A stretch of DNA of 64,000 nt, taken from contig CAWFHZ010000016.1 in assembly GCA_963815785.1 (NCBI GenBank), forward strand, positions 26,275-90,274, in the 5' to 3' direction. The position numbers and the translations under genes are program-made. The DNA comes from an uncultured Ignavibacteria bacterium (GTDB lineage: Bacteria; Bacteroidota; Ignavibacteria; Ignavibacteriales; Ignavibacteriaceae). Below, piece after piece: positions 1 through 17,229 of the stretch (positions are counted from its first letter, which is position 1; each line of letters opens with the position of its first letter). Under the pieces are notes generated by a model. That model was not told the DNA's origin. It worked only from the letters and a program-made list of their open reading frames with translations, and did not search any database.

Positions 1-412
1 ATAATATAACTTTTTCAGTAGAAGGTTCTACAAATTTCAACATTAGTTTAGCATTTATTTCACCAAACGAACCATTGAAATATGTAATTTCTCCAAGCAA
101 AAAAGCACCTTGAGAAATAAATTTAGCTTTCAATTCCTCATTCAATTCCGAACGATTGATTATATGAAATAAATTTCTTGTCTTTAGTTCTCTTCTTAAA
201 ATGGCATTAACAGTATCAGCTTCCGGAATTCTAATATTATTGTTTTCTTTTTTAATAACTAAAGGAAGTAAATCAACATATTCCATTTTGGAAACAGATT
301 GCTGGTCTATAATTTCACTTTTACTTCCCATTAATGAAGTACCAACACAACCAGTAACAAATATTATGATTGCAAATGCAAAACTCAAAATCATCAATTT
401 TGTACATTTCAT
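1..412 (-). CDS. partial cassette ORF: lipoprotein (N-terminus in window, C-terminus beyond the left edge)
   Basis: My own minus-strand translation from the ATG at 412-410 reads MKCTKLMILSFAFAIIIFVTGCVGTSLMGSKSEIIDQQ... This gives a signal peptide with a lipobox Cys. The frame is open to position 1. The ORF is absent from the supplied track because it is open-ended. Confidence 0.55.
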   Translation of the reverse strand, partial: MKCTKLMILSFAFAIIIFVTGCVGTSLMGSKSEIIDQQSVSKMEYVDLLPLVIKKENNNIRIPEADTVNAILRRELKTRNLFHIINRSELNEELKAKFISQGAFLLGEITYFNGSFGEINAKLMLKFVEPSTEKVIL

Positions 413-432
413 TTTTTTGTAACTCCAAAATT

Positions 433-655
433 GCCTAACGGTGTTGCAACTAAAGCGGCGCCCAACAAATCCACGCCACCTTAGCCACAAACGCCAATAA
501 TTTTACAAATTGTATTTAACTTTCATCGTAAATACAATTTGTGATAATGTTATTTAGAACTAATCCCTTAAATAAAAATTTGAACGAAAATCATAAACTT
601 ACAATATTAAAAACGCTGCATCGATTATGCGGTCGCTTTGAGTTGCAGGTTAGGC
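433..655 (-). other. attC-like recombination site 1 (223 bp)
   Basis: GCCTAAC at 433-439 and GTTAGGC at 649-655. The arms gcctaacGGTGTtgcaactaaagcg and cgctttGagttgcaGgttaggc form an imperfect inverted repeat with a bulged base. A central 14-bp perfect hairpin lies at 505-518/529-542. Confidence 0.7.
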
Positions 656-658
656 AAT

Positions 659-1744
659 TTATTTTAGTAAAATAGATGAAACAAATCCTTGAACACCGGT
701 ACCAATATTTTGAATGCTCGTTCCATCCCATTTAAAAATACCGTTCACAGTTTTTCCATTAACAGTGGTAAATAAGCCTCCGACATACAAAAAGTCGCCG
801 GATGTATATAAGCTATTTGGCCAATTATCAAATGAGAACTTATTAAAATCCCAATCACTTCCGGTCCAAATTGCATAATATGGCAAATCATTTGAACCAT
901 TTGATTGACCCGCTAAATGGAGTTCATTTTTATACACTGTCGCCACATATATTCTGTTTGAAATGGCAGTACTATCGACCGATTGCCAAATACTGTTATT
1001 CCATTTTGCAATATTAGTAACCGTCACATTGCCACATTTACTAAAATTGCCAGTAGCGTATAACTCATTATTGAAAACCGTAAGTGTCATTATATAAGAA
1101 CCTGAATTAACCCCGCTTCCTACCGTATCCCAATTTACCCCATTCCATTTAGCGATATTATTTGCATTAAAATTTCCCGAATAGTTTATAGTAAACCAGC
1201 CGCCTGCATAAAGTTCATCATTATAAACACAAAGTGTATATACTTCATCTGAAAGTCCTTCACCAACTGAGGACCAATTTGTTCCATTCCATTTTGCAAT
1301 ATTATCAGCTTTAATGCCACCAGAGCTTGAAAACCAACCGCCAGCATAAAGTTCATCTTTATAAACTTTAAGGCTAGTTACTCTACCATTAATTCCACCA
1401 TCAACTGATGACCATTCTTTCCCATCCCACTTTGCAATATTTTTAGCTTCCTTCCCTCCAGCTGAATCAATGAATCCACCAACATACAATTCATTATTAT
1501 AGAAGGCCATACATTCTACATCTGCATTTTGCCCCGATATTCCGGTACTAAGTGCACTCCACTTACTTTCATTCCAAACAGCAATATTTTTTATAGATTG
1601 ATTGCCTGGTATGGTAAATCTACCACCAATGAAAAGTGAATCTGAAGGGGATGTGGTGTTCCCATCAATTATTTCAGTTGGAGCTTCTGATTTGCATCCG
1701 TAGAATATTATTGAAACTAAAAAAAGTAAATTTAATATTTTCAT
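659..1744 (-). CDS. cassette ORF: seven-bladed beta-propeller-like repeat lipoprotein
   Basis: Signal peptide with lipobox (LVSIIFYGC). About seven tandem repeats of about 47 aa carry the motif NIAKWNGxxWSxVGxG...VYNxELYAGGxF. The TAA stop lies 4 nt from the attC core. Confidence 0.75.
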   Translation of the reverse strand: MKILNLLFLVSIIFYGCKSEAPTEIIDGNTTSPSDSLFIGGRFTIPGNQSIKNIAVWNESKWSALSTGISGQNADVECMAFYNNELYVGGFIDSAGGKEAKNIAKWDGKEWSSVDGGINGRVTSLKVYKDELYAGGWFSSSGGIKADNIAKWNGTNWSSVGEGLSDEVYTLCVYNDELYAGGWFTINYSGNFNANNIAKWNGVNWDTVGSGVNSGSYIMTLTVFNNELYATGNFSKCGNVTVTNIAKWNNSIWQSVDSTAISNRIYVATVYKNELHLAGQSNGSNDLPYYAIWTGSDWDFNKFSFDNWPNSLYTSGDFLYVGGLFTTVNGKTVNGIFKWDGTSIQNIGTGVQGFVSSILLK

Positions 1745-1765
1745 AAATTACTCCCCATATTAGTT

Positions 1766-1992
1766 GCCTAACGATGTTGTGCCTAAGCTGCTGCCCAAAA
1801 CAACAATGCTGAACAAGAACACTACTGCAAATGATTTAGTAAACTGTGCTTAACTTTCTTCGCAAGCACAGTTTACAAGTTAATTAGTTAGAATGAACAC
1901 CTTTAACAAAAACCTTTTTACGGAACTACTGACTTAAAAATCTCAATAATGCCGAGTGCGAATTGGCAGTCAGCTTGAGGCACGGGTTAGGC
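1766..1992 (-). other. attC-like recombination site 2 (227 bp)
   Basis: GCCTAAC at 1766-1772 and GTTAGGC at 1986-1992. The arms gcctaacGATGTTgtgcctaagctgctgcc and ggcagTcagcttGaggcacGGgttaggc have the same bulge geometry as site 1 but different sequence. A central 13-bp hairpin lies at 1839-1851/1864-1876. Confidence 0.7.
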
Positions 1993-1993
1993 T

Positions 1994-4900
1994 TCAATTC
2001 TTCGCACCTTTTTTTAAATTACAATATTTATGACTTGCTTGTAAGTTTAAGAACCTATCTTTACCGCCAGGTCCTAGTGGTTTAATATGATCAATATGAA
2101 TTTCATCGTTAATTAGTAACTTATTCTCACAAATTGGACACAAACCATTTTGTAGCTTTATCAATTCAATTATTTCTTCTCTAGTCAAAGATATTTTTCT
2201 AATATCTTTTTGATATTTCTTCCGATATTCTAAAATCCTCTGATGAAATTGTTCGATTTGATAAGGATTTTCTTCTTTGCTTTTAACGTTTTTTATGCTC
2301 TCAAAAATATCTACCAAGTCTTTCTTTATGTTTGTACGATCACTTAGTACACGCGCTTGATTAATAAAATGAATTAGATACCAGAGTGTATAAAAATCTT
2401 GTAAGGTTCTTGAATACCATTTTTGATTTTTAACATTAAAAATTCGTGTTAATTCTTTAGCAAGGTATTCTGATTCAATATCTTGCTCTATTTCTTCATC
2501 GATTAAAATAGTTTTTAGCTTGCGGAGAAGTTGTTCTGTTGATTTAATGCTTTTTAGGAAATTTTGTTTTTCTTTTAAATCAATTGTTGCTGTATTTAAG
2601 ATTTTAGTAACATCAATTTTGCTCTTGACCCTTATATAAAGACCGGTTGATTTATGATGTATATCTAAGAATGGATAAAATTGATCCGAATCGAAATCAG
2701 TAAATTCATTTTTATATTCCAAGTAAGAAAATATAGTATACATTTCCTCATTTTTCATTCTAGTGTCATTTCGACTTTGTAGTAAGTAGAACCAATTATC
2801 AAATTTATTTACTAGAGACTTTATGTTGTCAATGATATCTTTATCAACGTATGAATTCCACATCTCAAAAGAATTTTCCTTTATTGGGTAGGGGCGATTG
2901 TTTAATCGAATAAATAAATCAACTGGGTTGAATTCAGGATTATATTTGCTGTCGATCATTATGAAAGATAGCGGGAAATCGTGAATTGCATCCTTTAGCT
3001 CTTCAGTTAGTTCGTCAAAAGTAAGGCCATTTAAATTCTCAAGAATTTTTAATTTAGTTAATCGAAAACCGGTTTTTTCAGATGTTACTCTATTACCTTT
3101 TTCATCAATAAATTCTTGGTTCATAAATCCTAAAATGGATAATATACGCTGTTGACCATCAATGATTTCATAAATTCCATCTTCACGTTGGAAAATAAAC
3201 ATTGGTGGTAACTTGATTCCTAAAAGTATGCTTTCAATTATTGCACTCGACTTTACCTTATTAATTACTTCCCCACGTTGATATACTGGGCGAACAAGAA
3301 ATTTTCTTCTCAACATCATCCGACAAATATCATTAATTGTCAACGGGAAAGGTTCCGGCTTATCAATACGTATGTTATCAAAACTGTCAAAGCTATATTC
3401 AACAGTACTCTCTTTATATGTTTTTATCTTCTTTCTAAATGATTGATTACTAGAAATATAAATATCGAAATTAACATTAAAGACCTTGCTGAAATAATCA
3501 GCAATTGTATTGTATCTTGTCATAAATTGACTATAAAGAAACTGACTTGAATCATCAATGAATGTTTCAGAATTTTTTCTAAAGAATTTAATTAATTCGG
3601 TTGTAAACCCGTTTGTAATCATTTTGGCAATATCTTTTTTTTCATTTTCAAGTATAGAAATTGCCCAATACAGAGTTTCATAAGCGTATCTAGTAATTTT
3701 TAAGTTGTTATTCTCGAATACTTCTTTTAGTTGCAATAGAATTTTCACTTTTTCAACGAAATTCTTAAATAGACTCATTGTATCAGTAATATTTTCAGAA
3801 AATCTATTATAGAAAACATCGAATATTTCTTTTTGCCGTGTCGTTGTTATTGGCATCTTTGTACAGATTAACAAAAATCTGATTTCTTGTAGCAATTTTT
3901 CGAGCGTTTCCTTTTTATCAAGTTTTTGTAAATCTGATTCAGCCGCGAATAAAGCTGTAATATTATGAAATAAGTTTTTATTCTTGGAAATGTGCTCTTT
4001 AAAATATTTTGTGGGCTCATCATTTATATAAATGGCTTTCTCAATTTCTACACGTTTTAAGGGTGTAATTCCAGAATTATATCTTCTAAATATTTCTTTT
4101 TTTAACATATCTATTGATTTTTCATCTAATCTTCTTTCATCAACCAAAGAAAATTTTATAATGCGTATTCTTGTTTCAATAAATAGTTCTTTTAATTTTT
4201 CCTCAAGTTCATCGAAAGTTTTTCTTTCCAAGAATTTTAATAAATACAAACCACTCTTATTTAATGAGAACTCATTTCTATGGAATCTTATTATTGTTTC
4301 TAATCTTTGTCGTCCGTCTATCACTTCCATTTTATTGTTTGATTCAAAAACAATTAATGGAGGGATTTCAGTGCCTATCAAAATGCTTTCAATGAAATAT
4401 GTACCCTTAACATTATCCCAAACATATCTTCGCTGATAGTAAGGTTCATAATTAATCTTATTGATGATGCGTGGAGAAAGAAGCGCATCAATTGTTTTGT
4501 CCCAAGTTTCAATTTTTAATAAATACCTAAAGATTTCTTGTATTTCTTTGTATTGTAAGAATAATTTTTCCTCAACCTCGTATGAGTAATCTGTTTCATC
4601 ATTCTCATCTAAAATTTTATTTTGACGATAGGATATAACTTGGTTATCCCGCGAACAAATTGGACATTTAGAATTTAAGTGAGTTCTATTAATTATTCGT
4701 GCCGGCCATTCATTAAGGCAATCTTTACATATCCACCAAACAATTTCATTACTTTTTGCTAAATAATCTTTGGGTGTATTTTTATTCTTTTTATAGTTCC
4801 ATTCTAAGGCAATTTCAGGATATAATGCAGCAACAGACAAGTTCTTTTCCATATTTTCTTTTGCGCATTCAGGGCATCCCATATCTGTTTCAGTCCTACT

Positions 4901-5293
4901 TCTAACAAAGGTATTCCATTCGTGCTTTGGGTTAGTCTTACATTGCCACCATACTCTTCTCACTCCTTTGGGTGCGACTTCATATGGGTTCAATCCTTCG
5001 TTTCGTGTTGGATGCCATTCTGCAAGTAGATTGGGATATAAGGCTGCAAGTGATTCGTCGGGATGAGTACGAAAGGTGGAACAATAAGGACATCCTTTAG
5101 TTTTTTTAGTACGATTGTATATAGTGGCTTCCCAAATATGTTTTGGATTTTTCTTGCATTTCCACCATACCTTTTTTGTTCCCCCCAAGCTAAGGGTATT
5201 TGGATCTAAATCACCATTCTTTTCATAAAACCATTCTTCTAATAATTCAGGATACTCTTTTGTAAATGGTGGTAATAATTTTCTTTTTGCCAT
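1994..5293 (-). CDS. cassette ORF: Zn-ribbon x3 / DUF262 (ParB-like nuclease, GmrSD N-terminal type) x2 / C-terminal HNH endonuclease
   Basis: Three N-terminal repeats have the form L..EW....N......VWWxC...HxWxxxxxxR.....CPxC. There are two DUF262 cores: YQRRYVW...VIDGRQRLETI, and YQRGEV...IIDGQQRILSIL followed by DLFIRLNNRPYPI. The C-terminus reads CPIC...HIDHIKP...HKYCNLKKG (HNH). The TGA stop lies 1 nt from the attC core. Confidence 0.8.
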   Translation of the reverse strand: MAKRKLLPPFTKEYPELLEEWFYEKNGDLDPNTLSLGGTKKVWWKCKKNPKHIWEATIYNRTKKTKGCPYCSTFRTHPDESLAALYPNLLAEWHPTRNEGLNPYEVAPKGVRRVWWQCKTNPKHEWNTFVRSRTETDMGCPECAKENMEKNLSVAALYPEIALEWNYKKNKNTPKDYLAKSNEIVWWICKDCLNEWPARIINRTHLNSKCPICSRDNQVISYRQNKILDENDETDYSYEVEEKLFLQYKEIQEIFRYLLKIETWDKTIDALLSPRIINKINYEPYYQRRYVWDNVKGTYFIESILIGTEIPPLIVFESNNKMEVIDGRQRLETIIRFHRNEFSLNKSGLYLLKFLERKTFDELEEKLKELFIETRIRIIKFSLVDERRLDEKSIDMLKKEIFRRYNSGITPLKRVEIEKAIYINDEPTKYFKEHISKNKNLFHNITALFAAESDLQKLDKKETLEKLLQEIRFLLICTKMPITTTRQKEIFDVFYNRFSENITDTMSLFKNFVEKVKILLQLKEVFENNNLKITRYAYETLYWAISILENEKKDIAKMITNGFTTELIKFFRKNSETFIDDSSQFLYSQFMTRYNTIADYFSKVFNVNFDIYISSNQSFRKKIKTYKESTVEYSFDSFDNIRIDKPEPFPLTINDICRMMLRRKFLVRPVYQRGEVINKVKSSAIIESILLGIKLPPMFIFQREDGIYEIIDGQQRILSILGFMNQEFIDEKGNRVTSEKTGFRLTKLKILENLNGLTFDELTEELKDAIHDFPLSFIMIDSKYNPEFNPVDLFIRLNNRPYPIKENSFEMWNSYVDKDIIDNIKSLVNKFDNWFYLLQSRNDTRMKNEEMYTIFSYLEYKNEFTDFDSDQFYPFLDIHHKSTGLYIRVKSKIDVTKILNTATIDLKEKQNFLKSIKSTEQLLRKLKTILIDEEIEQDIESEYLAKELTRIFNVKNQKWYSRTLQDFYTLWYLIHFINQARVLSDRTNIKKDLVDIFESIKNVKSKEENPYQIEQFHQRILEYRKKYQKDIRKISLTREEIIELIKLQNGLCPICENKLLINDEIHIDHIKPLGPGGKDRFLNLQASHKYCNLKKGAKN

Positions 5294-5315
5294 ATCTCAC
5301 TATTTCCTTTAAGAA

Positions 5316-5764
5316 GCCTAACGAAGTTGCCGATAAGCGGCGCCCCAGAACTATTTTATTAGCCTAATTATTGTACCATAGGCTAAAATATTTGAACCAA
5401 TAGAGTAACCAGAAGTAAAGTTTTCTTTATCAACTTTAATATGAATAATTCCATCACCCCCAGAATTAGATGCATTTTCCATTAGTTCTTTAATAAGATA
5501 ATCAAAAATATCAGTCATTTTTTCCGGTTTTTTTTGAACTAAAGTGCTAAAGAAAGCACTAGTAGTTCCAATTACTTCGTAATTTTCTTTAATATCCCCA
5601 GTGCTTGCAATTATGTCTTCCATTTTGACTCCATAAATATTAAGAAGGTTTTTATTTAATTTATTTATACACTGCTAAACTGCAATGTTTATTAATCTTA
5701 CTATACTTAAGAACTACTCAAATCCCGTTTATATTACGGCGTCCGCTTGATTGGCAGGTTATAT
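5316..5764 (-). other. attC-like site 3, with a 90-aa ORF inside its central region (449 bp)
   Basis: GCCTAAC at 5316-5322 and GTTATAT at 5758-5764. The arms taacGAAGTtgccgataagcggcgcc and ggcgTccgcttGattggcaGgtta pair with the same bulged C/A geometry as sites 1 and 2. About 390 nt, including ORF 5351..5623, separates the arms. Confidence 0.55.
5351..5623 (-). CDS. small YbjQ/UPF0145-like protein (tentative), embedded between the arms of attC-like site 3
   Basis: The 90-aa ORF follows the pattern I..T.....YEVIG...(n)...A...GGDGIIHIKVD...ILAYGTIIRL. This resembles the YbjQ-family layout (TT..i.GYE..G ... GAnAv ... yGTAV). The resemblance was judged by eye only. Confidence 0.4.
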   Translation of the reverse strand: MEDIIASTGDIKENYEVIGTTSAFFSTLVQKKPEKMTDIFDYLIKELMENASNSGGDGIIHIKVDKENFTSGYSIGSNILAYGTIIRLIK

Positions 5765-7039
5765 TTTTTTTACGAACTTCAAATAGTTAACAATACTTCT
5801 GTAGCATATTAATTCTATATCAATAAATGGATCTACATCATAAAGTGTTAAATATATTTCATACCCTTTCCAGTCTCTTAAACTGCTACTCCCGCCGTGT
5901 AGAATTTCATTTCTTAAATCGAAAAGTCTATCAGCTTTTTCATCTATCTTTTTATCAATATTTTTTAATGAACATAATCCATTTCTAATACTAGTTTCTA
6001 CATTGTTCTTTTCACCAAATAAAGCATCTAAAGCAATATAAAAGTGCATAAATCTTTCGATATCTGAAGAAGCAAGTAAGCCGTAATTTATAAACTGCGT
6101 AGCTGTCTCAAATCTTTTTTTTGATTCTGAGTTTAATCTATTGATGGATTTAATATAGGAATCAATTTCTTCCAGAGTTTCTATATCTACTTCAAGATGA
6201 GATGCAAAAGATGGCTGCAAAAATGGGAGTGAATTTATTTGTAGATTAAAATCTACAGTATCACTTCCGGGAAATAATATACAATATCTGGGCGTATCAT
6301 TTTCAATATAATTTTGTAAGGAATCATAAGAAGTAATTTTGAATGAACAAACAATGGCAATAAAATCTCTTACAGTAAATGTTAATTTTCTTCTGGCTCC
6401 TTTTTCAGTCCCATTTGTTTTGAATATTAACCAAGTCAAAGGAATATTGTATGCAGCAGGGATTATAGACCTATTGTAATTTTGTCCATTACTAGGATTG
6501 AAGCCGTTAGAAGATTTAAAATCACGACTTATCTTTTCCCAATTCATTGCATCAGATGGCGCTAATAATGCTAAATCTAAACTTTCAAAAATATAAGAGT
6601 TTGATTTTATTATGGTTAATGGAAATAAATTCATCCAATCAATTATTGATGACATTAGCTTATTCTCAATAATACAATATAATTTTTTTGATACATTTTT
6701 GTAATCTGAATTAATACTTACTTCCAACAAATTATCTGCTTCAGATTTAAAAACTAAATCAGAATTAAAAATATCTTTATTAAATCCATTATTTTGAATT
6801 GTATCTATAATTACTGTCGAGAAATATTCATAATCACCACCCAAAAACCTTTTGTCAGATGAAATAATCATTTTAGACAAATCATTTCGAAGCTTAAAGC
6901 TTTTTTTTGTGTACCACCACTGCAAACCAATATTACCAATTAAAAAACTTGTTGGGAAACAGTCATTATAACTCATTTTATGAAGTTTTATTTCACGTAA
7001 TAAAGCTAATATTTTACCATATATCTTTTCTTTACCCAA
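5759..7039 (-). CDS. cassette ORF: protein with a C-terminal HEPN-like domain (Rx4H motif)
   Basis: 426 aa with a TTG start. The C-terminal helical region FMHFYIALDALFGE ... DRLFDLRNEILHGG carries the R-x4-H HEPN signature (RNEILH). The N-terminal 300 aa is unrecognised. The TAA stop overlaps the GTTA of the attC core. Confidence 0.55.
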   Translation of the reverse strand: MGKEKIYGKILALLREIKLHKMSYNDCFPTSFLIGNIGLQWWYTKKSFKLRNDLSKMIISSDKRFLGGDYEYFSTVIIDTIQNNGFNKDIFNSDLVFKSEADNLLEVSINSDYKNVSKKLYCIIENKLMSSIIDWMNLFPLTIIKSNSYIFESLDLALLAPSDAMNWEKISRDFKSSNGFNPSNGQNYNRSIIPAAYNIPLTWLIFKTNGTEKGARRKLTFTVRDFIAIVCSFKITSYDSLQNYIENDTPRYCILFPGSDTVDFNLQINSLPFLQPSFASHLEVDIETLEEIDSYIKSINRLNSESKKRFETATQFINYGLLASSDIERFMHFYIALDALFGEKNNVETSIRNGLCSLKNIDKKIDEKADRLFDLRNEILHGGSSSLRDWKGYEIYLTLYDVDPFIDIELICYRSIVNYLKFVKKI

Positions 7040-7368
7040 CTTGTATTGTTTTTTAATTCTTGAAAAATATAACTATTAATTATGCCGCCAAATATCCGTA
7101 TAACTATCCCGCGGCAAGAATGTTATATTCCACTTAAAACTTTTATTATTGGATATTTTCAAAACTTTTTGCGGCATATCATTCCACATATTTAAGAATG
7201 TTATCCAGACAGTTTCTTCGCGGGTCCCTTACTGAATTCATCAACAACAATACCCCGTGACTTCTTAGTATTTTCAACAAAATTCATTTATAACATAAAT
7301 CAATTTTGAATTACAGGCAATATTTTTTTTAATTTTATTATTATTTTTATTACCAACTAAATTTTATA

Positions 7369-8232
7369 GTGATTATGCTCCATATCGGCACTTGTTCTTG
7401 GAAATACGATTTCTGGAAAGGAATCATCTACCCCGATAAAGAAAAATTTAATTTCCTTGAAGAATATTCTCAGCATTATGATACTGTAGAAGTAGATCAG
7501 TGGTTCTGGAGTTTATTCGAAGTTGATAAAATTCTGCTCCCAAATGGTAAAGATGTTAAGGATTACACTAAATCAGTTCCAGATGATTTCAAATTCACAA
7601 TCAAAATACCAAACAGCATCACACTTACTCATTTCTACAACCGGAGTAAAAAAGAACCTCTCAAAGAAAATCCTCACTTCTTTGATCCTGAATTATTCGA
7701 TTCATTTCTAGGCACATTAAAACCAATGAAGAAAAAACTTGGACCTTTAATGTTTCAGTTCGAATATCTTAATAAGCAAAAAATGAGCGGACTCCCTGAA
7801 TTCATAGATCGTTTCGAAGCATTCCTCGAACAGCTTGATAATAAATACCAATATGGTGTAGAACTCCGGAATCCGAATTATCTTAAAAAACCATTTTTTG
7901 AATTCATTCAAAGAAATAATCTTATCGCAGTATTACTCGAAGGCTACTATATGCCTCCTGTAAAAGAAGTATTCAAAGAATTTAAAGATTACATAGAAGA
8001 TACTGTTGTAATAAGACTTCACGGACCGGATAGATCAGGAATGGAAAAGGCAACAGGTAAAGTCTGGAATAAAATCGTTGCCCCAAAAGACGAACAATTA
8101 AATGATATTGCAGAAATAGCTCATTATTTCCTCAATAAAAAAATGGATGTTTACTTAAACGTAAACAACCATTACGAAGGTTCAGCTCCGCTAACTATAC
8201 AGAAAATTCAAAAGCTAATTCCGAACAAATGA
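7369..8232 (+). CDS. DUF72 family protein
   Basis: Motifs seen: HIGTCSWKYDFWKGIIYP, VIRLHGPDR and VYLNVNNHYEGSAPLTIQKI. These are typical of the DUF72 (YecE-like) family. The true start may be the ATG at 7375. Confidence 0.75.
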   Translation: MIMLHIGTCSWKYDFWKGIIYPDKEKFNFLEEYSQHYDTVEVDQWFWSLFEVDKILLPNGKDVKDYTKSVPDDFKFTIKIPNSITLTHFYNRSKKEPLKENPHFFDPELFDSFLGTLKPMKKKLGPLMFQFEYLNKQKMSGLPEFIDRFEAFLEQLDNKYQYGVELRNPNYLKKPFFEFIQRNNLIAVLLEGYYMPPVKEVFKEFKDYIEDTVVIRLHGPDRSGMEKATGKVWNKIVAPKDEQLNDIAEIAHYFLNKKMDVYLNVNNHYEGSAPLTIQKIQKLIPNK

Positions 8233-8696
8233 GAACCAGACAAAAATATATTTATGACTATGAAACTAATTTTCTTGTAAGATTCCGAGATGAGAAGGGA
8301 AGATATATACAGAAGGCCTTTGGCTATGCATCAAAAAGTAAAAAAGAAGTTTTGGCTAAAGCAATTAAATGGCGCGATGAAAATCTTCCTGATATTCGTA
8401 AAACCGGAAAAAGAATGCTGCAGAGTAAACCCCAAAGGAATAAAAAAAATAAACTGCCTGCTGGAATCAGCCTTTCATTCAAGTATAAAGATACAAGGAA
8501 TAAAAAGTATAAATACCCAATTCTAAGTATTTCAGCGGGAAAAGATGAAAAAGGTAAGGCACTTATAAAAACTATTCGAATAAATAATTATGCAAATAGT
8601 GATGCGGCGATTGAAGCTGCAATAAGGATAAGAGTGAATTTGCTAATCGAAAATAATAAGACTGAATTACAAAGATTTGAGAATAAGAAAGGTTGA
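8229..8696 (+). CDS. hypothetical basic protein (possible tandem AP2-like DNA-binding repeats)
   Basis: 155 aa, Lys/Arg-rich. Its ATGA overlaps the DUF72 stop. The stretch F.VRF.D..G.....FGYASKS..EVLAKAIKWRDE resembles the AP2/integrase-type fold. The functional call is weak. Confidence 0.4.
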   Translation: MRTRQKYIYDYETNFLVRFRDEKGRYIQKAFGYASKSKKEVLAKAIKWRDENLPDIRKTGKRMLQSKPQRNKKNKLPAGISLSFKYKDTRNKKYKYPILSISAGKDEKGKALIKTIRINNYANSDAAIEAAIRIRVNLLIENNKTELQRFENKKG

Positions 8697-8880
8697 TCCA
8701 GGTATGTCTTTGCCTTGTTGATCTGAAGCTTTGGGAGGATCTTTTATATTAGATTTCCAACTTTTCTGAGAACATCATCTTTAAGCTGAACATAAATCTG
8801 GTAGTTGAGATAAGAAGGCAGCGCCCCTCTCACAATAAAAAAGATTAATAAACTATTAGGGGAATAAATTCGGGCTGTAT

Positions 8881-8921
8881 GCCTGCCTGCCTTAGGCACG
8901 GCCTGCCTGCCGTAGGTACGG
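8881..8921. repeat. tandem 20-nt palindromic repeat (gcctgcctgccNtaggNacgg x2)
   Basis: Read directly: gcctgcctgccttaggcacg followed by gcctgcctgccgtaggtacgg. Related cctgcc...ggcagg palindromes occur at 57120-57142, 57268-57288 and 63913-63935. Confidence 0.7.
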
Positions 8922-9873
8922 TTATTACCATAACACTATAAACCAAGCCGTACTTGTCCCGAAGGTATAGCCAACATCATTGCGGGGAAAACTTAGTTGG
9001 TGTTTCTAATCGTTTTACATTTAGCTCATTCATTCATCAGCACAATTCCATTTTTTTTATTACCCCATCTACTTGATAGCTCCACTTCGTTCCGCTATCA
9101 AGCTATTCCACTTAATCACAAAGCTAACCCTCGCTTCTTTATTCAATCGCTAAAAGTACGTTTGCTGTAAAAATTTCATAAAATATTATTTTCAATAAAA
9201 TCATTTCATATCAGTTCAATCAGTTAAATCTGCGTCCTATTATCTCTTAACTTTTTTAATTCAATATTTACTTACCGCAAACTTCAAATCGTTTCTGCAG
9301 GACCTGTCCGCCTCTGGCGGAAAAGTTTTTATGCGCTTGTTTTATTATCCGGCATTCGCCGTATCCAGCCCTCATTTATCTTAGGGCATTAGAATTTCAA
9401 AGCATCAATTTATTTCCGTTGCTCCTGCTGCTTCACTTCGCCGGGTCTGGTCGCCCCGGCTCGCTCTTTGCACTTAAGCCCTCACTTATTCACGATGTCC
9501 TAAGCTCGTTCTTAAGCCGTCGCAACTTTCATTATACTAATTTTATTGTTTTTTGTACGTAATTGTACGGATGTATAACCCCAATTGATGAATTATATTA
9601 TGATCGGATATGGGTTTATTTGGGTGTAATGATTCCTGATTTATTATACTTTTTATTCTCCCTTTATTAAGATTTTTCCACCCCCTCGGGTCGCGAAAAC
9701 GCGCATAGATGCCCTTGCGTATGCAGGGGTATCTGTTTATTTACGGTCAATAATTACACTTTAATTAGTAGTTATTACGGTTGTCACATATTTTTAATAA
9801 AAATATTTAACATTTTCTTAGGTATAATTATTGATTTAATTAATAATTCTTCAACCCAAAAGGAGTATCTCTT

Positions 9874-11445: not shown

Positions 11446-12528
11446 TCACGTAAGATTATACCTCTTCTTAAAATATTCCTTACTGAAATTCACTCCCATA
11501 TCAGTAAGTACTTTATCCCGTTCAGCACTATGGTCAACAACAGCTTCCTTCTTATTCAGCTTTACTCTCGGCGCATCAATCTTTCCGTAATTAAGTTCAG
11601 TATAATATCTCAGTAATTCATTCAGCGCTCTCTCTACAAGCTTCTTATCGGTAATGCCTAAATAGTTAAGCATCTCTTTGTGTATCTCCGCAGCTTTATA
11701 TGAACCGCTCTTTTGTGTTTCTGTTGTCAGTGTAACAGTAAGTACAGCTTTGGATATTTCCGCATTATGAAAACCAACCAGGTTCTGGTATAACCCGCCC
11801 ACATCGTAGCTCGGTGATTCTTTTATCTCTATTTCTTTGCCTTCTTCAAATACACTTATCGTATCCTGCACCATCTGCTCAAGATCTTCCAGCAGTTGTG
11901 CTTTTTCTGCAGGTGTTGCACCGGTAGCATATCTGCCAATAAGATACGGCATTCCAAACCTCTCCATCATTAACTGCCAGTACTCAATCCCTGCTCTCTT
12001 AAAAGTTACAGGCCAGTAGCATCTGCTTAATACTTTCTCTCCGTAAGGATTAACATAAGTCGGCTGGTATTGTGTTACTATAAATTTATAGTCAGGAAGC
12101 TTTTCACCTTCTTCAAAAAGATAATTGCCGTATCTCATTTTTCTTAGTCTTAATTTATTTTCTTTGTCGTAGATAAACCATTCCTGCGGTTTGCCTATAA
12201 TATTAACCGGTACAATCTCACTCCCGTCAAGTTTCCAGTCAATCTCACCGACAGAAAAACCAAACAGCACTGCATCAAGTACATTGTTCATTATCTCCCC
12301 AAGCGGCATCATTCTAAGTATATCAATGGTGCGGTTCTTTATCTTTTCGTCCTGTTCATAATCAACTTCCCATCCCATCTGCATTACCTGCATTTTCCTT
12401 TGCTGTATAGCAGCAATCAAATGAGCATCACTCAGTAAATCCCTCAGTATACTGAAGTCATAATTATTTTCAGCGAGTATCTTGTCCGGGTCAGGCAGTG
12501 AAGTATAAAGATGTTCATAAACCTGCAT
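11446..12528 (-). CDS. phage portal protein, Mu gp29-like (DUF935), probably N-terminally truncated
   Basis: 360 aa. The motif FHNAEISKAVLTVTLTTETQKSGSYKAAEIHKE resembles the conserved DUF935 portal core. Portals of this family are usually longer. 350 nt of noncoding junk lies upstream. Confidence 0.65.
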   Translation of the reverse strand: MQVYEHLYTSLPDPDKILAENNYDFSILRDLLSDAHLIAAIQQRKMQVMQMGWEVDYEQDEKIKNRTIDILRMMPLGEIMNNVLDAVLFGFSVGEIDWKLDGSEIVPVNIIGKPQEWFIYDKENKLRLRKMRYGNYLFEEGEKLPDYKFIVTQYQPTYVNPYGEKVLSRCYWPVTFKRAGIEYWQLMMERFGMPYLIGRYATGATPAEKAQLLEDLEQMVQDTISVFEEGKEIEIKESPSYDVGGLYQNLVGFHNAEISKAVLTVTLTTETQKSGSYKAAEIHKEMLNYLGITDKKLVERALNELLRYYTELNYGKIDAPRVKLNKKEAVVDHSAERDKVLTDMGVNFSKEYFKKRYNLT

Positions 12529-12877
12529 TTTATCGCGTGTTGCAAAATCACTTAAAAGTCTGTTTCTTATAATTTTTTTTCATTTCTCTATTCCGCTTTT
12601 GGTTTTATCCGTTTTAACTTGTTTCTTAGTTCCTTTATGATACCTTATAGTAGCCTTCTAAAAGAGGTTTGAGGTTTATAAGGATGGTGAGTAATTTGCC
12701 TTGCGCTCTAAAATTACTGCCATCCTTCCTTTTTATCTCTGATTTATTTCCTCTTTGCCTGCTGAAGGTTGCCTACTGCATACTCATTATTGCCTACTTG
12801 CCCTATATTTCCTGTACTTGCTTCTAAATTGTTTCCTCGGTAAATGAATCACAGGTTCATTACTTATTATTCTTTTT

Positions 12878-14129
12878 TCATCTTTCGCATAGTTCAGAAA
12901 TTGAGCTCATACTATCCACCGCATCGTCAAATTCACCATCGGGAAATTCTTCGCATTCATCAATAAAATCTTTTACCCACACTTCACCTTCAGGCAGATA
13001 AACTTTCCCCGCTTCAATCAGTGGAGTAACAGAATGCACCCTCGCTATTTTATCTGTATCAACTTTAATAGCTTTAATCGGTATTCTGCTTCCTCTTTTC
13101 ATTTCCTGTATAAGTGATTGCCCGCTTGCTTTATCCTCAACAAGCACTTCATTCGGATTATAAAGCTTATATAATTCTTTGCATTTCTTTTTTAGTTCAG
13201 GAAACTCAACTCTGTCTTTCCAGAGATTAACCAGGTAAAATCCATCGGGTGTAATAAACCACGTAGTACAAACCGAAAAATCATTTCCTTCTTTATCCTT
13301 AAAAGCAGTATCCCAGCTTTGTATTTTTTTAAGTATTCTTTTTTGTGTTATGTATTCAGGATTATAATATCTCCACCATTCACTTTTTATTATTCCGCTT
13401 GTTTCTTTATCAACAAACTTTCCAAATACTTCCTGGTCTCTTAATGCAGGAGAAATTTCTTTTACAAGTTCATCAATCTCATTCTTATCAATCAAAGGAT
13501 TATCGTAGGATGAAAAATTAAAACTCTCCCATTGCGATTTTCATCCCCTCCACTGGAGGGGTCCGGCTTTAGCCGGGGGTGGGTTTATCTGCACTTTGAC
13601 CTCTCTCAAACAGTTCATAGAACAGGTGCTTCTCCCTCTTCCCTTTAACATTCTTACCCTTCGGAGTTCCGCCTATCAGTACATCTGCCTTATAATCCAG
13701 TATCATTGGTCTTATAGATTCATTCCAAAGACTTCTGTTCTTAAGCACAATACCGGCTTCATTTATAATAATAAGCGCATAACCAAATCCCTCAATATTC
13801 TCAGGTCTGTCCGCACTTCGGAAATCGCATACAGAACTCATTATCTTAAGATCATTCCTGTTGCTTCTGTACTTCCATAAGTTTTTAGGTAATTGTTTTA
13901 GCGTAGGAGTAAAATATCTCTCAACATATCTGTCTATGTTCCCGTATATGGTATCAACCCAAAGCACCGGCGAAACTCCATCCATCATCTGATCAATAAC
14001 ATAATTTGCAAATCCTCTCGTCAGCCCGAAACGTCTTCCTTTGGCAATTACCTTATATCTGGCTTTGCTCTCAAAAAATATCTTCTGCTGATTTTTATGG
14101 TAAGTAATATCTAAGCTGATTTCTTTCAT
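12878..14129 (-). pseudogene. phage terminase large subunit, split by a palindromic element insertion
   Basis: The N-terminal ATPase fragment is 13569..14129 (KGRRFGLTRG, LIIINEAG). The C-terminal nuclease fragment is 12878..13540 (WESFNFSSYDNP..., DTAFKDKEGNDFSV, VEDKASGQSL, EFPDGEFDDAVDSMS). The two fragments are in different frames and are separated by the element at 13544-13584, which supplies an in-frame TAA. Confidence 0.8.
13544..13584. repeat. GC-rich double-hairpin element (tcccctccactggagggg tccggctttagccgg gggtgggt) inserted in the terminase gene
   Basis: Palindromes cccctcc/ggagggg and ccggc/gccgg stand out in otherwise AT-rich coding sequence. A related copy lies at 49789-49822. 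Confidence 0.75.
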
Positions 14130-14476
14130 TTAACAGTCTTCCGGGTAATCTTAATATCATATTCTCCCGTCTCGTCTATCTTTTCAGCTTGTCCCAGGTA
14201 TTGCTTTCCTAACCAGATCAGCATAACTACATTTCCCTGCATAGCAACGGAAATCTGTTTCTTCTTTAACCGTTCTCTAAGGTTAGCTTTCCCTTTTATG
14301 ATATTTTTCTCAAAGTTCCGTTTCAGTGTGCTGTCATCATAACCAAGTGCTTCAGCAATTTCTTTATTGGTTAATCCGTATGAAGCCAGTTTTTCTATTT
14401 TCTGTTCTTCTGTTAATTCAACTTTTTTCTTCGGTGGCTTTTTCATAAGTGGCGTTTTCCTTCCAAAATCAAACAA
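14126..14476 (-). CDS. phage terminase small subunit-like HTH protein
   Basis: 116 aa with an HTH (LTNKEIAEALGYDDSTLKRNF). It lies immediately upstream of the large terminase and overlaps it. Confidence 0.6.
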   Translation of the reverse strand: MFDFGRKTPLMKKPPKKKVELTEEQKIEKLASYGLTNKEIAEALGYDDSTLKRNFEKNIIKGKANLRERLKKKQISVAMQGNVVMLIWLGKQYLGQAEKIDETGEYDIKITRKTVK

Positions 14477-14605
14477 TCGATATAGATAAAATCTATTATA
14501 TTTTAAATATAATAAATTCTATTGATATTTATTAGGCAAAATGTTATATTTAATTAAGTTTTTTAGGCTATGATATACGATTTGTTAATAAAGTAAGGAT
14601 ATTCG

Positions 14606-15621
14606 ATGATGAATGAATTTGAAATTTTTAAGGCAGGGACTCATACTTCAAGTAATGGAACCACTAAAGACTATTCCATAAAAGACTTGGAGTTTATCGC
14701 CTCTTCTTATAATCCCGCAGAAAATGAAGCTCCTATTGTAATCGGTCACCCCGTAGATAATTCACCTGCTTACGGATGGATTGAATCTCTTAAGGTTGCA
14801 GGCGACAACTTCTTGCAAAACCTAAGGAAGTTATCAAGGAGTTTTCTGAAGCAGTTAAAAAAGGATTATATAAAAAACGAAGTATCTCTCTTGATAAAGA
14901 TGGAAAGTTAAGACACGTAGGTTTTCTTGGCGGTGCCGCTCCCGCTGTAAAAGGTTTAGCTGATATTCAGTTTAACGAACCTTCAGCAGTTACTTTTGAA
15001 CTTGATATTGAGGGGCTTAAAGAAAACGCAAAAGATGAACAGGTTATAGATAAAATTGATAACACTTCGGACAAGGATATCAAAGAACCGGTAACAGATG
15101 ATAAGCCCCCTCTTTTTTCTGAACAGTTAAACCAGATACGCGATAATCTTATTGAGCTTAATAAAAAGTTTGTAAGCACTCCTGATAAAACTAATACTTC
15201 TGATATTTCTAAAATCCAGTCTGCTGTTGATGAACTAAGCTTCAAGATTAACTTCTCTGAGTTTGAACCAATGCTTAATGATAAATTATCTTCCGGTTCT
15301 CTTACTCCCGCAATGAAGAAATCTGTAATGAGTCTCTTCGAATATCTCAACACTCAGAACTTCTCTGCTGAATATGATTACTCAAAATTCAGGAATGATG
15401 TTAAGAAGCTTCTTACTGATTTTGTTGAGTCGGTTCCAAAGATAGTCTATTATGAAAACTTTGCGGAGAAACCCGATGAACCTGATAATGATAGTAATAG
15501 TTTTTCCGGCTATACGCTTGATGAGGAGTCTGCTGCACTTCACAAAAAAGCTAAAACAATAATGAGGAAAGATAATATCTCCTACGAAGCAGCAGTAATG
15601 AAATTGTCTAAATTAAATTAA
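14606..15621 (+). pseudogene. phage scaffold/prohead-protease-like protein with one frameshift (about 14800-14815)
   Basis: The first frame gives FKAGTHTSSNGTTKDYS..APIVIGHPVDNSPAYGWIESLKV. After a -1 shift the reading continues KPKEVIKEFSEAVKKGLYKKRSISL..RHVGFLGGAAPAVKGL... and joins track ORF 15271..15621 with no further stop. Confidence 0.65.
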
Positions 15622-15633
15622 GGAAATGATACG

Positions 15634-16557
15634 ATGGGTACACTTTCAAACAAACGTGTGGTAGATCCTGTTCTTACTAACATAGCACGTGGCTATAACA
15701 ACGCCGCTCTTATCGGCACAATGCTTTTCCCGGTTGTCTCGGTTGATAAGGAAGGCGGTAAGATTCCTCAGTTTACCAAGGAAGCTTTTAAGATTTATAA
15801 TACTGAACGCGCAATCCGTGCTAAGTCCAACAGGATTTCACCGGAAGGTCGCACTTCAGTTGATTTCGTTCTTGATGAACACGATCTTGAATATCCTATG
15901 GATTACAGGGAGATTGATGAGGATGTTACTCCCTTAAAGATTTATGCTACTCAGGTTGTCACTGATGGTATAGGTCTAAGACTTGAAAAACTCATAGCTG
16001 ATTTGTCGCAGAACTTGTCAACTTATCCCTCAGGTAATAAAGTAACTCTCTCTGCAAGTGATCAGTTCTCAAATGCTTCTTCCGATCCATTCGTAATATT
16101 TGATACAGCTAAGGAAGCAGTAAGAGGTAAGATTGCAAAACGTCCCAATGTTTGTGTACTTGGTGCGCAGTCTTATAAAGCATTAAAGAACCATCCTGCA
16201 GTGCTTGATAGAATTAAATACACTCAGCACGCAGTGATAACTCCGGAACTTCTCAGAAATCTCTTAGACTTTGAACAGCTTTTTGTAGGTGATGCAGTAA
16301 GCGCAGATGACACAGGCACTTTCTCTGATATATGGTCTGATAATGCTGTTGTTGCCTATGTTCCTAAAGCTAAAACTGATTTGCCCCGTTCCTACTTCGA
16401 GCCTGCTTTTGCATATACACTCAGGAAGAAAGATAATCCTTTGGTTGATGTATATGATGAGAATGGAAAAGTCCAGGTTGTACGTAATACTGATATATTC
16501 ATTCCTAAAGTTGTCGGTGCAGAAGCAGGTTATTTAATCAACGATACTAATGCATAA
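15634..16557 (+). CDS. phage major capsid protein (lambda gpE-like family)
   Basis: 307 aa and intact. It sits after the scaffold gene. The N-terminal DPVLTNIARGY...LFPVVSV..GKIP.F and C-terminal AGYLI patterns are typical of gpE-like capsid proteins. Confidence 0.65.
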   Translation: MGTLSNKRVVDPVLTNIARGYNNAALIGTMLFPVVSVDKEGGKIPQFTKEAFKIYNTERAIRAKSNRISPEGRTSVDFVLDEHDLEYPMDYREIDEDVTPLKIYATQVVTDGIGLRLEKLIADLSQNLSTYPSGNKVTLSASDQFSNASSDPFVIFDTAKEAVRGKIAKRPNVCVLGAQSYKALKNHPAVLDRIKYTQHAVITPELLRNLLDFEQLFVGDAVSADDTGTFSDIWSDNAVVAYVPKAKTDLPRSYFEPAFAYTLRKKDNPLVDVYDENGKVQVVRNTDIFIPKVVGAEAGYLINDTNA

Positions 16558-16568
16558 GGTAAGGATAG

Positions 16569-16841
16569 ATGAAATACAAACTAATCAACACAGATTTAAT
16601 CTATAAAGGTACTCTTTATTCTGAAGGCTGCATTCTCGAAATCGATTCTAAAGATGCAGACTCAATCTCAGAGTATCTCAAACCTATTGAGAGTCATTCT
16701 GAATCTTCCCAGGTCAGTCATCCTGAACGAGTCATCCTGGACTTGTTTCAGGATCTCTCGGATAGTCATCCTTATACCGATTTATCAGTTAAATCTCCAA
16801 AACAAAAAAATTCAAAAAGCAATAAAGGAAAGAAACGATGA
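16569..16841 (+). CDS. small phage protein carrying an in-frame palindromic-repeat insertion
   Basis: 90 aa. Residues about 42-68 (HSESSQVSHPERVILDLFQDLSDSHP) are encoded by GTCATYCTGA-type repeat units at 16693-16771. Its ATGA overlaps the next gene. Confidence 0.45.
   Translation: MKYKLINTDLIYKGTLYSEGCILEIDSKDADSISEYLKPIESHSESSQVSHPERVILDLFQDLSDSHPYTDLSVKSPKQKNSKSNKGKKR
16693..16771. repeat. three abutting GTCAT(T/C)CTGA... repeat units inside a coding frame
   Basis: Sequence gtcattctgaatcttcccaggtca gtcatcctgaacga gtcatcctggacttgtttcaggatctc ggata gtcatcc. The third unit closely matches the intergenic copy at 10486-10512. Confidence 0.7.
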
Positions 16842-17170: not shown

Positions 17171-17229
17171 TTATTAAACAGGAAATTTATTTTGTCTTAC
17201 ATAACATTCACAGTCGGCTTTGATTCAGA

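What the first reader, a model, noticed from the sequence alone, without database searches (positions are those of the whole stretch)
1..7130. Integron-style gene-cassette array with no integrase in view
Seen in sequence: each minus-strand ORF is followed at once by a structured site. The site starts with GCCTAAC (433, 1766, 5316) and ends with GTTAGGC (649-655, 1986-1992) or GTTATAT (5758-5764). The primary sequence of the arms differs among the three sites, but the geometry is conserved. That geometry is: a 7-bp core, an asymmetric unpaired spacer (5-6 nt on one arm, 1-2 nt on the other), a 6-7 bp stem, a bulged C, a 6 bp stem, a bulged A, then a 4-5 bp stem. The bulges always sit on the arm next to the stop codon of the upstream ORF. 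Stop codons abut or overlap the core, and the next ORF starts 21-24 nt past the distal core. Established knowledge: RYYYAAC / GTTRRRY cores, structure-not-sequence conservation and extrahelical bases on the R''-L'' arm define integron attC sites. Inference: this is part of a chromosomal integron or a CALIN cluster in an FCB-group genome. The integrase and attI, if present, should lie to the right of the array, but 7.1-8.7 kb holds only DUF72 and a small basic protein. The array continues past the left edge of the window.
Basis: partly seen in the sequence, partly recalled or inferred. Interest (0 to 1): 0.8.

Follow-up and report, generated by a model that had tools for sequence, protein, structure and literature searches.

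The report
Integron cassette array lacking its integrase
The left 7.2 kb of the window is the start of an integron gene-cassette array in an Ignavibacteria-type chromosome; it keeps its cassette insertion site but has no integrase gene, which is a known kind of element with a few unusual details.

Summary
The observation and the interpretation both hold. Sites 433-655, 1766-1992 and 5316-5764 are the three best AAC...GTT arm pairings out of 12,724 in the window. All three share one geometry on the + strand.

They belong to a family of about 180 sites, in two size classes of about 189 and 225 nt. These sites form one-orientation arrays in 64 Ignavibacteriota loci. Nine of those loci carry a TIGR02249 integron integrase next to the sites.

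A covariance model built only from the integrase-linked sites hits the two uninterrupted window sites at E 4e-31 and 3e-23. It hits nothing else in 64 kb.

The arm stems covary. The outer bases of R' do not pair with R''. Whole cassettes recur in other genomes with unrelated neighbours, and the break falls exactly at G|TT. Two contigs that are 99.9% identical diverge at exactly that point.

An attI core (7067-7082) closes the array on the right. No intI or clear intI remnant exists anywhere in the window, so this is a CALIN-type array that retains attI.

Integrons are already reported in Ignavibacteriae, so this is a new member of a known kind. Three details are unusual: very long attC sites, a covarying inner hairpin, and one attC with a complete small gene inside its loop.

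The parts
2..412 (-). 5' part of the next cassette ORF. It starts at 412 and runs off the left edge, so the array continues beyond the window.
   Evidence: ORF map and sequence. The start codon lies 20 nt beyond the R' core of attC1. No family match.
433..655 (+). attC1, long class (223 nt). The + strand is the folding (bottom) strand. R' 433-439, L' 445-461, L'' 629-647 with extrahelical G640 and T633, R'' 649-655.
   Evidence: Model R1: 119 bits, E 3e-23. Near-identical copies in L039 and L055.
496..551 (+). Inner hairpin of attC1, the module that separates the 225-nt class from the 189-nt class. Conserved loop AACTTTCATCG.
   Evidence: I8. Covariation across 31 long-class sites: 13 pairs, 12 with changes on both sides.
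439..1771 (-). Cassette A (1333 bp): ORF 659-1744, a 361-aa beta-propeller/Kelch-like lipoprotein, plus attC1.
   Evidence: 98% identical in L055 and 95.6% in L039, with unrelated DNA on both sides and breaks at the TAAC cores. A homologue at 59% aa identity sits in the array of integrase locus L013. Pfam.
1766..1992 (+). attC2, long class (227 nt). R' 1766-1772, L' 1778-1795, inner hairpin 1830-1885, L'' 1965-1984 with extrahelical T1970 and G1977, R'' 1986-1992.
   Evidence: Model R1: 157 bits, E 3.6e-31.
1772..5321 (-). Cassette B (3550 bp): ORF 1994-5293, 1099 aa, with three treble-clef zinc fingers, two GmrSD_N/DUF262 regions and an HNH domain. Probably an anti-phage nuclease.
   Evidence: Pfam. 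PADLOC NsnA at E 3e-54 and PD-T4-2_A.
5316..5764 (+). attC3 (449 nt). R' 5316-5322, L' 5328-5344, then an insert at about 5352-5659, family-like interior 5660-5737, L'' 5738-5756 with extrahelical T5742 and G5749, R'' 5758-5764 (GTTATAT).
   Evidence: Four different downstream neighbours follow its R'. L151 and L152 are 99.9% identical up to that point.
5351..5623 (-). 90-aa YbjQ-like ORF with a GGAG ribosome-binding site, lying inside the loop of attC3.
   Evidence: Pfam YbjQ_1 at E 2e-4. Identical protein on three other contigs. Homologues at 78% and 67% identity are ordinary genes without attC arms.
5322..7072 (-). Cassette C, the first cassette (1751 bp): ORF 5759-7039 (426 aa, no family match), followed by attC3 with the nested ORF.
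   Evidence: 99.1% identical over 1767 nt in L151 and L152, while the adjoining DUF72 flank is 85.3% identical. No match in Pfam, NCBIfam, PADLOC or PDB.
7067..7082 (-). attI core TAATTAATA-GTTATAT. The predicted crossover lies between G7073 and T7072.
   Evidence: The only match in the window. The same motif lies 105-190 nt after the intI stop codon in eight integrase loci. L060 matches 25 of 27 nt, E 3e-5.
7083..7211 (-). Rest of the attI region. 7171-7208 resembles the last five codons of intI plus 20 nt in L014 (tentative remnant).
   Evidence: Local alignment score 39 against a shuffle mean of 19.3 (sd 2.6), 0 of 500 shuffles as high. A generic intI-3' profile finds nothing. The region cannot be aligned with L151 or L152.
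7212..8232 (+). Chromosomal flank. 7212-7368 is conserved with L151 and L152. DUF72 gene at 7369-8232. No integrase.
   Evidence: tblastn with IntI1 and nine Ignavibacteria IntI proteins gives only noise across the 64 kb.

Best explanation
Window 1-7211 is the attI-proximal end of a chromosomal integron cassette array in an Ignavibacteriota genome. The integrase gene is no longer next to it, so it is a CALIN-type array that still has attI.

Layout. Each cassette is one tightly packed minus-strand ORF followed by an attC site. The + strand is the bottom strand. As single-stranded DNA it folds so that R' (nnnTAAC) pairs with R'' (GTTAnnn) and L' pairs with L''. A G and a T are left extrahelical, 6 bp apart, on the L'' arm.

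Mechanism. An integron integrase would cut the folded strand in the AAC of R' (between 438/439, 1771/1772 and 5321/5322). It would exchange it with another attC, or with attI at 7072/7073. In this way whole cassettes are excised, inserted and reshuffled.

What is shown: the site anatomy; covariation; linkage of the same site family to bona fide integron integrases in relatives; the one-orientation ORF-attC arrays; and exchange of cassettes exactly at G|TT, including between contigs that are 99.9% identical.

What is inferred: that an integrase encoded elsewhere in the genome acts in trans on this array; that intI was once adjacent and was deleted; and that the cassettes are transcribed from near attI.
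For: Anatomy and rank among all candidate pairings.

Family: about 180 related sites in 64 Ignavibacteriota loci, in size classes of about 189 and 225 nt.

Integrase linkage: nine loci carry IntI proteins at 44-48% identity to IntI1 over the full length. The three I scanned against NCBIfam scored 411-428 bits on TIGR02249 (cut-off 265).

Model R1, built only from sites in integrase loci, hits the window at E 3.6e-31 and 3e-23 and nowhere else.

Covariation: in the L helix 98% of cells are paired, 10 of 16 pairs change on both sides, and 0 of 500 shuffles reach this.

The outer 3 nt of R' are often unpaired. Full R'/R'' complementarity is no more frequent than chance (21 observed, 26 expected). 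This is expected if those bases come from the neighbouring cassette.

G.T outnumbers A.C 47:14 on the + (bottom) strand. Published attC sites show the same bias (PMC5027507). The 6-bp spacing of the extrahelical bases also matches that paper.

Arrays: no mixed orientation, 113 of 119 intervals with the longest ORF on the top strand, median interval 840 nt.

Cassette exchange at the core: cassette A; four different neighbours after attC3; L151 and L152 identical up to the crossover.

attI core at the predicted end of the array.
Against: No integrase was found, so catalysis at these sites is inferred, not shown.

IntegronFinder's generic attC model could not be run.

The sites are 189-449 nt long, outside the 57-141 bp range usually quoted (PMC5027507). 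Long loops are reported to lower recombination from double-stranded DNA.

The evidence for an intI remnant is one 38-nt pairwise similarity, and a profile search does not support it.

The attI regions of the window and of L151/L152 cannot be aligned, yet both join the same chromosomal point. A simple deletion story does not explain this.
Confidence: 0.88

Rival explanations
1. The array is a dead relic. The integrase was lost and the sites no longer recombine, so the cassette differences between genomes are old.
For: No intI in 64 kb. Several relatives (L036, L047, L069) also show truncated intI next to attI and an array. CALINs are generally viewed as degraded integrons (PMC9024848).
Against: L151 and L152 are 99.9% identical over 3.4 kb and diverge exactly at the G|TT of attC3. 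Cassette C is 99.1% identical between genomes whose flank is only 85% identical and whose attI regions cannot be aligned. Both points indicate recent exchange in lineages that lack intI at this locus.
Confidence: 0.15
2. The junction polymorphisms come from ordinary homologous recombination between the conserved attC arms and attI core, not from integrase-mediated exchange.
For: Arms and interiors of the family are similar enough (about 65-80% identity) for occasional homologous exchange. The L150 copy of attC3 looks chimeric in its L'' arm.
Against: The breaks fall within 1-3 nt of the G|TT in every case, not at varied points along the 190-225 nt of similarity. The outer R' bases are uncorrelated with R'' across 130 sites, as expected for a fixed crossover point.
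Confidence: 0.07
3. The integrase lies beyond the left edge of the window, so this is simply a complete integron cut by the window.
For: The array does run off the left edge.
Against: The attI core is at the right end. In all nine integrase loci intI lies next to attI, either 105-190 nt upstream (8 loci) or divergent from it (L013). L151 and L152, which share this flank, also have no intI there.
Confidence: 0.03
4. The sites are generic palindromic repeats (REP or MITE-like) or transcription terminators that happen to follow ORFs.
For: They are structured intergenic repeats downstream of ORFs. No Rfam family matches them.
Against: They occur only in one-orientation arrays and lie next to integron integrases. 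They have AAC/GTT cores, extrahelical bases on one arm and a strand-biased G.T excess. They delimit units that move as cassettes. No T-run follows the stems.
Confidence: 0.02

Closest known systems
CALIN (cluster of attC sites lacking an integron integrase; Cury et al. 2016, PMC4889954; Neron et al. 2022, PMC9024848)
   Same: Three attC sites less than 4 kb apart, one orientation, and no intI nearby. This is the operational definition.
   Different: An attI core is retained at the end of the array. Near-identical strains differ at the crossover point, which suggests the array is still being recombined.
Sedentary chromosomal integrons such as the Vibrio cholerae superintegron with its VCR attC sites (my own knowledge; features summarised in PMC5027507)
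   Same: Chromosomal array of promoterless single-ORF cassettes. The attC sites form one related family with long, partly branched loops. Cassettes are of unknown or defence-type function.
   Different: The sites are 189 or 225 nt rather than about 120-130 nt. The host is Ignavibacteriota. In eight of nine related loci intI points towards the cassettes rather than away. There is no intI in cis here.
Integrons already reported in Chlorobi and Ignavibacteriae by IntegronFinder surveys (PMC9024848)
   Same: Same phylum-level host and the same element type. The relatives I fetched have complete integrons.
   Different: The papers I read do not describe the attC family, its two size classes, the attI motif or intI-less arrays for this clade. 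I did not find such a description, but the library is incomplete.
DUF1874 motif (Weinberg et al. 2017, PMC5737381), a multistem element in consecutive intergenic regions proposed to be an unusual attC
   Same: A structured element more complex than a simple hairpin, repeated after successive ORFs, with no integrase seen by its discoverers.
   Different: No Rfam family matches the window sites, even at E up to 10. I did not confirm that this motif is itself among Rfam's models. For the present family the integrase link is shown.
IS1111-attC group of IS110-family insertion sequences that target attC sites (my own knowledge)
   Same: In related locus L150, four IS110-family transposase genes each lie about 60 nt from the R'' end of an attC.
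   Different: Not present in the window. Membership of the attC-targeting subgroup was not tested.

Membership tests
attC recombination site | Inverse cores: on the bottom strand, R' is 5'-RYYYAAC and R'' is 5'-GTTRRRY, with invariant AAC/GTT triplets | tested here: met
   GCCTAAC...GTTAGGC twice and GCCTAAC...GTTATAT once. TAAC/GTTA is invariant in the 22 and 31 aligned relatives. Some family members (ATATAAC, GTATAAC) depart from strict RYYY.
attC recombination site | L'/L'' arms conserved as structure rather than sequence | tested here: met
   16 pairs with 98% of cells paired; 10 pairs change on both sides; 0 of 500 shuffles as high; slid controls give 28-42% paired. The same holds for 31 long-class sites that include the window sites.
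attC recombination site | Extrahelical bases on the L'' arm of the bottom strand, with a 6-bp stem between the first and last (PMC5027507) | tested here: met
   G640/T633, G1977/T1970 and G5749/T5742, each pair separated by a 6-bp stem and all on the arm next to the ORF stop. The two bulge columns are conserved in the alignments.
attC recombination site | Unpaired central spacer between the R and L boxes | tested here: met
   5 nt on the R'-L' side and 1 nt on the L''-R'' side in all three sites. This is more asymmetric than the 5-6 nt per arm quoted in PMC5027507.
attC recombination site | Length 57-141 bp, with a variable terminal structure of 20-100 nt (PMC5027507, PMC4889954) | tested here: not met
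   Window sites are 223, 227 and 449 nt. The family has modes at 188-191 and 223-227 nt. This range is descriptive rather than a mechanistic requirement.
attC recombination site | Bottom strand favoured for folding (excess of G.T over A.C mispairs) | tested here: met
   47 G.T against 14 A.C cells on the + (bottom) strand. The published figures are 1.24 against 0.39 per site.
attC recombination site | Significant hit to the IntegronFinder attC covariance model | not testable with these tools
   That model is not in Rfam or otherwise on hand. As a substitute, family model R1 built from integrase-linked sites gives E 3.6e-31 and 3e-23.
attC recombination site | Recombined by an integron integrase at G|TT | tested here: inconclusive
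   The enzyme could not be assayed. Indirect evidence: cassette borders fall at the core in five comparisons, and the outer R' bases are independent of R''.
Gene cassette array | Single, tightly packed ORFs in one orientation, each followed by its attC | tested here: met
   Window: four minus-strand ORFs, stop codons 0-3 nt from R'' and starts 20-22 nt after R'. Relatives: 113 of 119 intervals, with the ORF covering a median 84% of the interval.
Complete integron | intI gene with the integron-specific extra domain, adjacent to attI | tested here: not met
   No IntI similarity anywhere in the 64 kb with IntI1 or nine Ignavibacteria IntI queries (best E above 0.04). The relatives do have it: TIGR02249 matched end to end.
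Complete integron | attI site at the integrase-proximal end of the array | tested here: met
   TAATTAATAGTTATAT at 7067-7082 is unique in the window. It matches the motif found 105-190 nt after intI in eight loci. Function was not assayed.
CALIN | At least two attC sites clustered, with no intI nearby | tested here: met
   Three sites within 5.3 kb, and no intI within the 57 kb to the right.

The most novel reading that the evidence does not exclude
An attC site whose loop carries a complete, separately translated gene (attC3 with the YbjQ-like ORF) is still used as a recombination partner. In addition, an attI with no integrase in cis has recently received or exchanged cassettes through an integrase acting in trans.

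The nested gene would then be either a two-gene cassette of a new layout, or a snapshot of how a chromosomal gene becomes joined to an attC. How cassettes originate is an open question. Homologues of the nested gene at 78% and 67% identity are ordinary chromosomal genes without attC arms.
Probability: 0.25. Interest if true: 0.6.

Novelty: new member of a known kind. Interest (0 to 1): 0.36.

Why it matters
In itself this is a further example of a known element. Integrons and integrase-less cassette clusters are well described, and integrons have been reported in Ignavibacteriae.

It has some practical value:
- It defines the attC family of this clade: two size classes of about 189 and 225 nt, an inner covarying hairpin, and the attI motif TAAKTARTA-GTTA.
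- From my own memory of IntegronFinder (not verified here), its default upper attC size limit is about 200 nt. If so, the 225-nt class and the 449-nt site would be missed by default, and cassettes in this phylum would be miscounted.
- One cassette encodes a large GmrSD/NsnA-like nuclease. To my knowledge, chromosomal integrons are thought to store anti-phage genes, and this fits that view.

Two observations could interest integron specialists if confirmed: the attC with a nested gene, and the evidence for recent exchange at a locus without its own integrase.

Tried and rejected
- The ungapped inverted-repeat finder did not report the arms, because of the bulges. I replaced it with a duplex-energy scan.
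- Rfam at gathering and at permissive thresholds found nothing at the sites.
- Exact-protein look-ups for the propeller ORF and for DUF72 (two start codons) were not on record. The look-up succeeded only for the 90-aa ORF.
- Synteny through DUF72: 80 metagenome loci at 53-71% identity have no attC. Only one has an IntI-like fragment, 6.7 kb away at a contig end. The integron position is therefore not conserved at that distance.
- Search for an intI remnant in the window. tblastn gave noise. A generic profile of the intI 3' end found nothing. Only one pairwise similarity to L014 stands out, so I call the remnant tentative.
- Function of the 426-aa first-cassette protein: no match in Pfam, NCBIfam, PADLOC or PDB sequences.
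- Conserved structure in the rest of the attC interior: RNAalifold supports only the outer stems. The long-class hairpin has support from pair counts.
- Search for other attC sites with nested genes in all fetched loci: only this lineage (window, L151, L152). The other long pairings were cross-pairings between neighbouring sites.
- Considered and rejected: that site 3 is two fused attC sites. This needs two separate deletions, and the whole unit recurs intact in L150. It is not excluded.

Full report
OBSERVATION

The three sites are real and sit at the stated coordinates. All five GCCTAAC heptamers of the window lie at their ends.

I paired the 32 nt after every AAC with the 32 nt before every GTT lying 40-700 nt downstream. 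This gave 12,724 pairs per strand. The three sites took ranks 1-3, at -17.1 to -20.0 kcal/mol against a mean of -5.6 (sd 1.7).

All three share this geometry on the + strand:
- a 7-nt core;
- a 5-nt spacer;
- an unbroken 5' arm;
- a 3' arm with a bulged T and a bulged G separated by a 6-bp stem;
- a 1-nt spacer;
- the inverse core.

The bulged arm is always the one next to the stop codon of the minus-strand ORF. Stop codons lie 0-3 nt from the core, and the next ORF starts 20-22 nt past the other core. In site 1 the innermost stem is weaker. Site 3 is interrupted (see below).

WHAT THE SITES ARE

A pattern taken from the 5' arm (GCCTAACGNNGTTGNNNNTAAGCNGC) found 69 loci among one genome per species. 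By my rough estimate about 4 would be expected by chance. Nearly all are Ignavibacteria, Melioribacteraceae or 'Bacteroidetes bacterium' MAGs.

Profile searches then found about 180 related sites in 64 of these loci. Within each locus the sites always form a one-orientation array. Lengths fall into two classes, 188-191 nt and 223-227 nt. The long class is the short one plus an inner hairpin of about 36 nt.

Across 119 intervals between neighbouring sites, none has mixed orientation. In 113 the longest ORF is on the strand predicted from the window. The median interval is 840 nt, and the ORF fills 84% of it.

LINK TO INTEGRON INTEGRASES

Nine loci encode a protein 44-48% identical to IntI1 over its full length. 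Three of these proteins were checked and score 411-428 bits on NCBIfam TIGR02249 'integron integrase' (cut-off 265), matched end to end.

In eight loci intI points towards the cassettes, and a conserved motif (consensus TAAKTARTA-GTTAKRY) lies 105-190 nt after its stop codon, immediately before the first cassette. In L013 intI is divergent, with the same motif between it and the array.

A NON-CIRCULAR TEST

I aligned 22 sites taken only from integrase-bearing loci, leaving out the one that is homologous to a window site. I built a covariance model from them and searched the window.

It hits 1766-1992 at 157 bits (E 3.6e-31) and 433-655 at 119 bits (E 3e-23), both over the full model. Nothing else is below E = 1. 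Site 3 is missed because of its insert. Sequence profiles recover its two ends, 5316-5351 and 5660-5762.

STRUCTURE UNDER SELECTION, ON THE + STRAND

On that alignment the L helix has 98% of cells paired, and 10 of 16 pairs change on both sides. No shuffle out of 500 reaches the observed values, and sliding the partners drops pairing to 28-42%.

The TAAC/GTTA part of the R boxes is invariant. The outer three positions are unpaired in 7-12 of 22 sites. Across 130 sites, full R'/R'' complementarity is no commoner than chance (21 observed, 26 expected). This is the pattern expected if the outer six bases of R' are supplied by the neighbouring cassette after a crossover at G|TT.

G.T mispairs outnumber A.C mispairs 47 to 14 when read on the + strand. 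Published attC sites show the same bottom-strand bias. The 6-bp spacing between extrahelical bases also matches what is reported as needed for efficient recombination (PMC5027507).

CASSETTES MOVE AS UNITS AT THE CORE

Cassette A (439-1771) is 98% identical in L055 and 95.6% identical in L039. On both sides the neighbouring DNA is unrelated, and similarity starts and stops at the TAAC of the R' cores. A homologue at 59% aa identity sits in the array next to the integrase of L013.

The 90-aa protein inside site 3 was on record, which brought in three contigs from one assembly.

L151 and L152 share the window's flank (Mu-like portal, DUF72), attI core, first cassette and attC3. After the G|TTA of attC3's R', the window, L150, L151 and L152 each continue with a different cassette. 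L151 and L152 are 99.9% identical over 3.4 kb up to exactly that point.

THE RIGHT END

The attI motif occurs once in the window, at 7067-7082 on the minus strand, exactly where the first cassette should begin. L060 matches it at 25 of 27 nt.

No integrase or convincing remnant exists in the 64 kb. One 38-nt stretch (7171-7208) resembles the last five codons of intI plus the following 20 nt in L014 (0 of 500 shuffles as high). I treat this as tentative.

Loci L036, L047 and L069 likewise show attI plus an array with only short intI remnants. Loss of intI therefore seems common in this clade.

Under the IntegronFinder definitions the window element is a CALIN, with attI retained. Integrons in Ignavibacteriae have been reported before (PMC9024848).

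IS IT STILL ACTIVE?

Between the window and L151/L152, the DUF72 flank is 85.3% identical and the first cassette is 99.1% identical. The attI region between them cannot be aligned, although both join the flank at the same nucleotide.

Together with the L151/L152 difference at the crossover point, this suggests recent site-specific exchange in lineages without a local integrase, hence an integrase acting in trans. This is inference. A recent independent loss of intI, or homologous exchange, is not excluded. The two unalignable attI regions at one chromosomal junction remain unexplained.

UNUSUAL DETAILS

(1) Size. At 189 and 225 nt the sites exceed the 57-141 bp usually quoted and the 20-100 nt loops described by Cury et al..

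(2) Inner hairpin. The long-class inner hairpin (496-551 and 1830-1885 in the window) has 13 pairs, 12 of which change on both sides, and a conserved loop AACTTTCNTCG. Branched loops are known in chromosomal integrons. Its role is unknown.

(3) Nested gene. attC3 has normal arms and a normal right-hand interior. About 77 model positions are replaced by about 300 nt, which hold an intact YbjQ-like ORF with its own ribosome-binding site. The ORF ends flush with L'.
- The whole 446-nt unit recurs at 98.4% identity in L150 behind an unrelated ORF.
- Homologues of the ORF at 78% and 67% identity are ordinary genes with no attC nearby.
- No other nested case was found in the fetched loci.
- How the gene got there is unexplained.

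CASSETTE CONTENT

- Cassette A: a beta-propeller lipoprotein.
- Cassette B: a 1099-aa zinc-finger, GmrSD_N and HNH protein that matches the PADLOC defence model NsnA.
- Cassette C: a 426-aa protein with no detectable family.
- One further ORF, cut by the window edge.

VERDICT

The element is a new member of a known kind. It is of modest general interest, with a few details worth a specialist's attention.

Noticed in passing
L058:4379-4655 and L050:4650-4927 (reverse strand): An element of about 280 bp, 84% identical between the two genomes, interrupts intI at the same codon (about 306), just upstream of the catalytic-tyrosine motif. It has 16-nt terminal inverted repeats (ATCCCGTGAGATAT...) and encodes an 86-aa GIY-YIG protein (Pfam E 1e-14)..
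   Followed up: partly
L150:1230-9315: Four IS110-family transposase genes each lie about 60 nt from the R'' end of an attC site in a cassette array. This is reminiscent of insertion sequences known to target attC sites.
   Followed up: no
L036:3206-3457; L047 and L069, upstream of their attI cores: Arrays with an attI core but only short remnants of intI (for example residues 15-56 plus 303-328 in L036). Repeated decay of the integrase gene in this clade.
   Followed up: partly
window 7084-7211, compared with L151:7090-7307: The attI regions of the window and of L151/L152 cannot be aligned, yet both join the conserved chromosomal flank at the same nucleotide (after ...GCGAARAAAYTG). Neither has intI.
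   Followed up: partly
window 11446-19000 and 19896-19969: Decayed Mu-like prophage (portal, terminase in pieces, major capsid) next to a tRNA-Thr gene. The portal region is 93.7% identical in L151.
   Followed up: no
window 8881-8921, 57120-57142 and 57147-57601: Two tandem copies of a GC-rich 20-mer (GCCTGCCTGCCGTAGGCACG) in a 34%-GC genome. Similar GC-rich hairpins lie in and near a 239-nt tandem duplication (1.9 copies, 86% identity) in an intergenic region.
   Followed up: no
window 8700-9870: About 1.1 kb without any ORF of 60 aa or more, and with no Rfam match, between a small basic protein gene (8229-8696) and the next ORF.
   Followed up: no
L010 (Gemmatimonadales MAG): 301-444, 1006-1147, 6699-6840: Sites of 142-144 nt with the same two-bulge geometry and the same 5'-arm pattern occur in a non-Ignavibacteria genome. 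Related attC arms therefore exist outside the phylum, or the contig is mis-binned.
   Followed up: no
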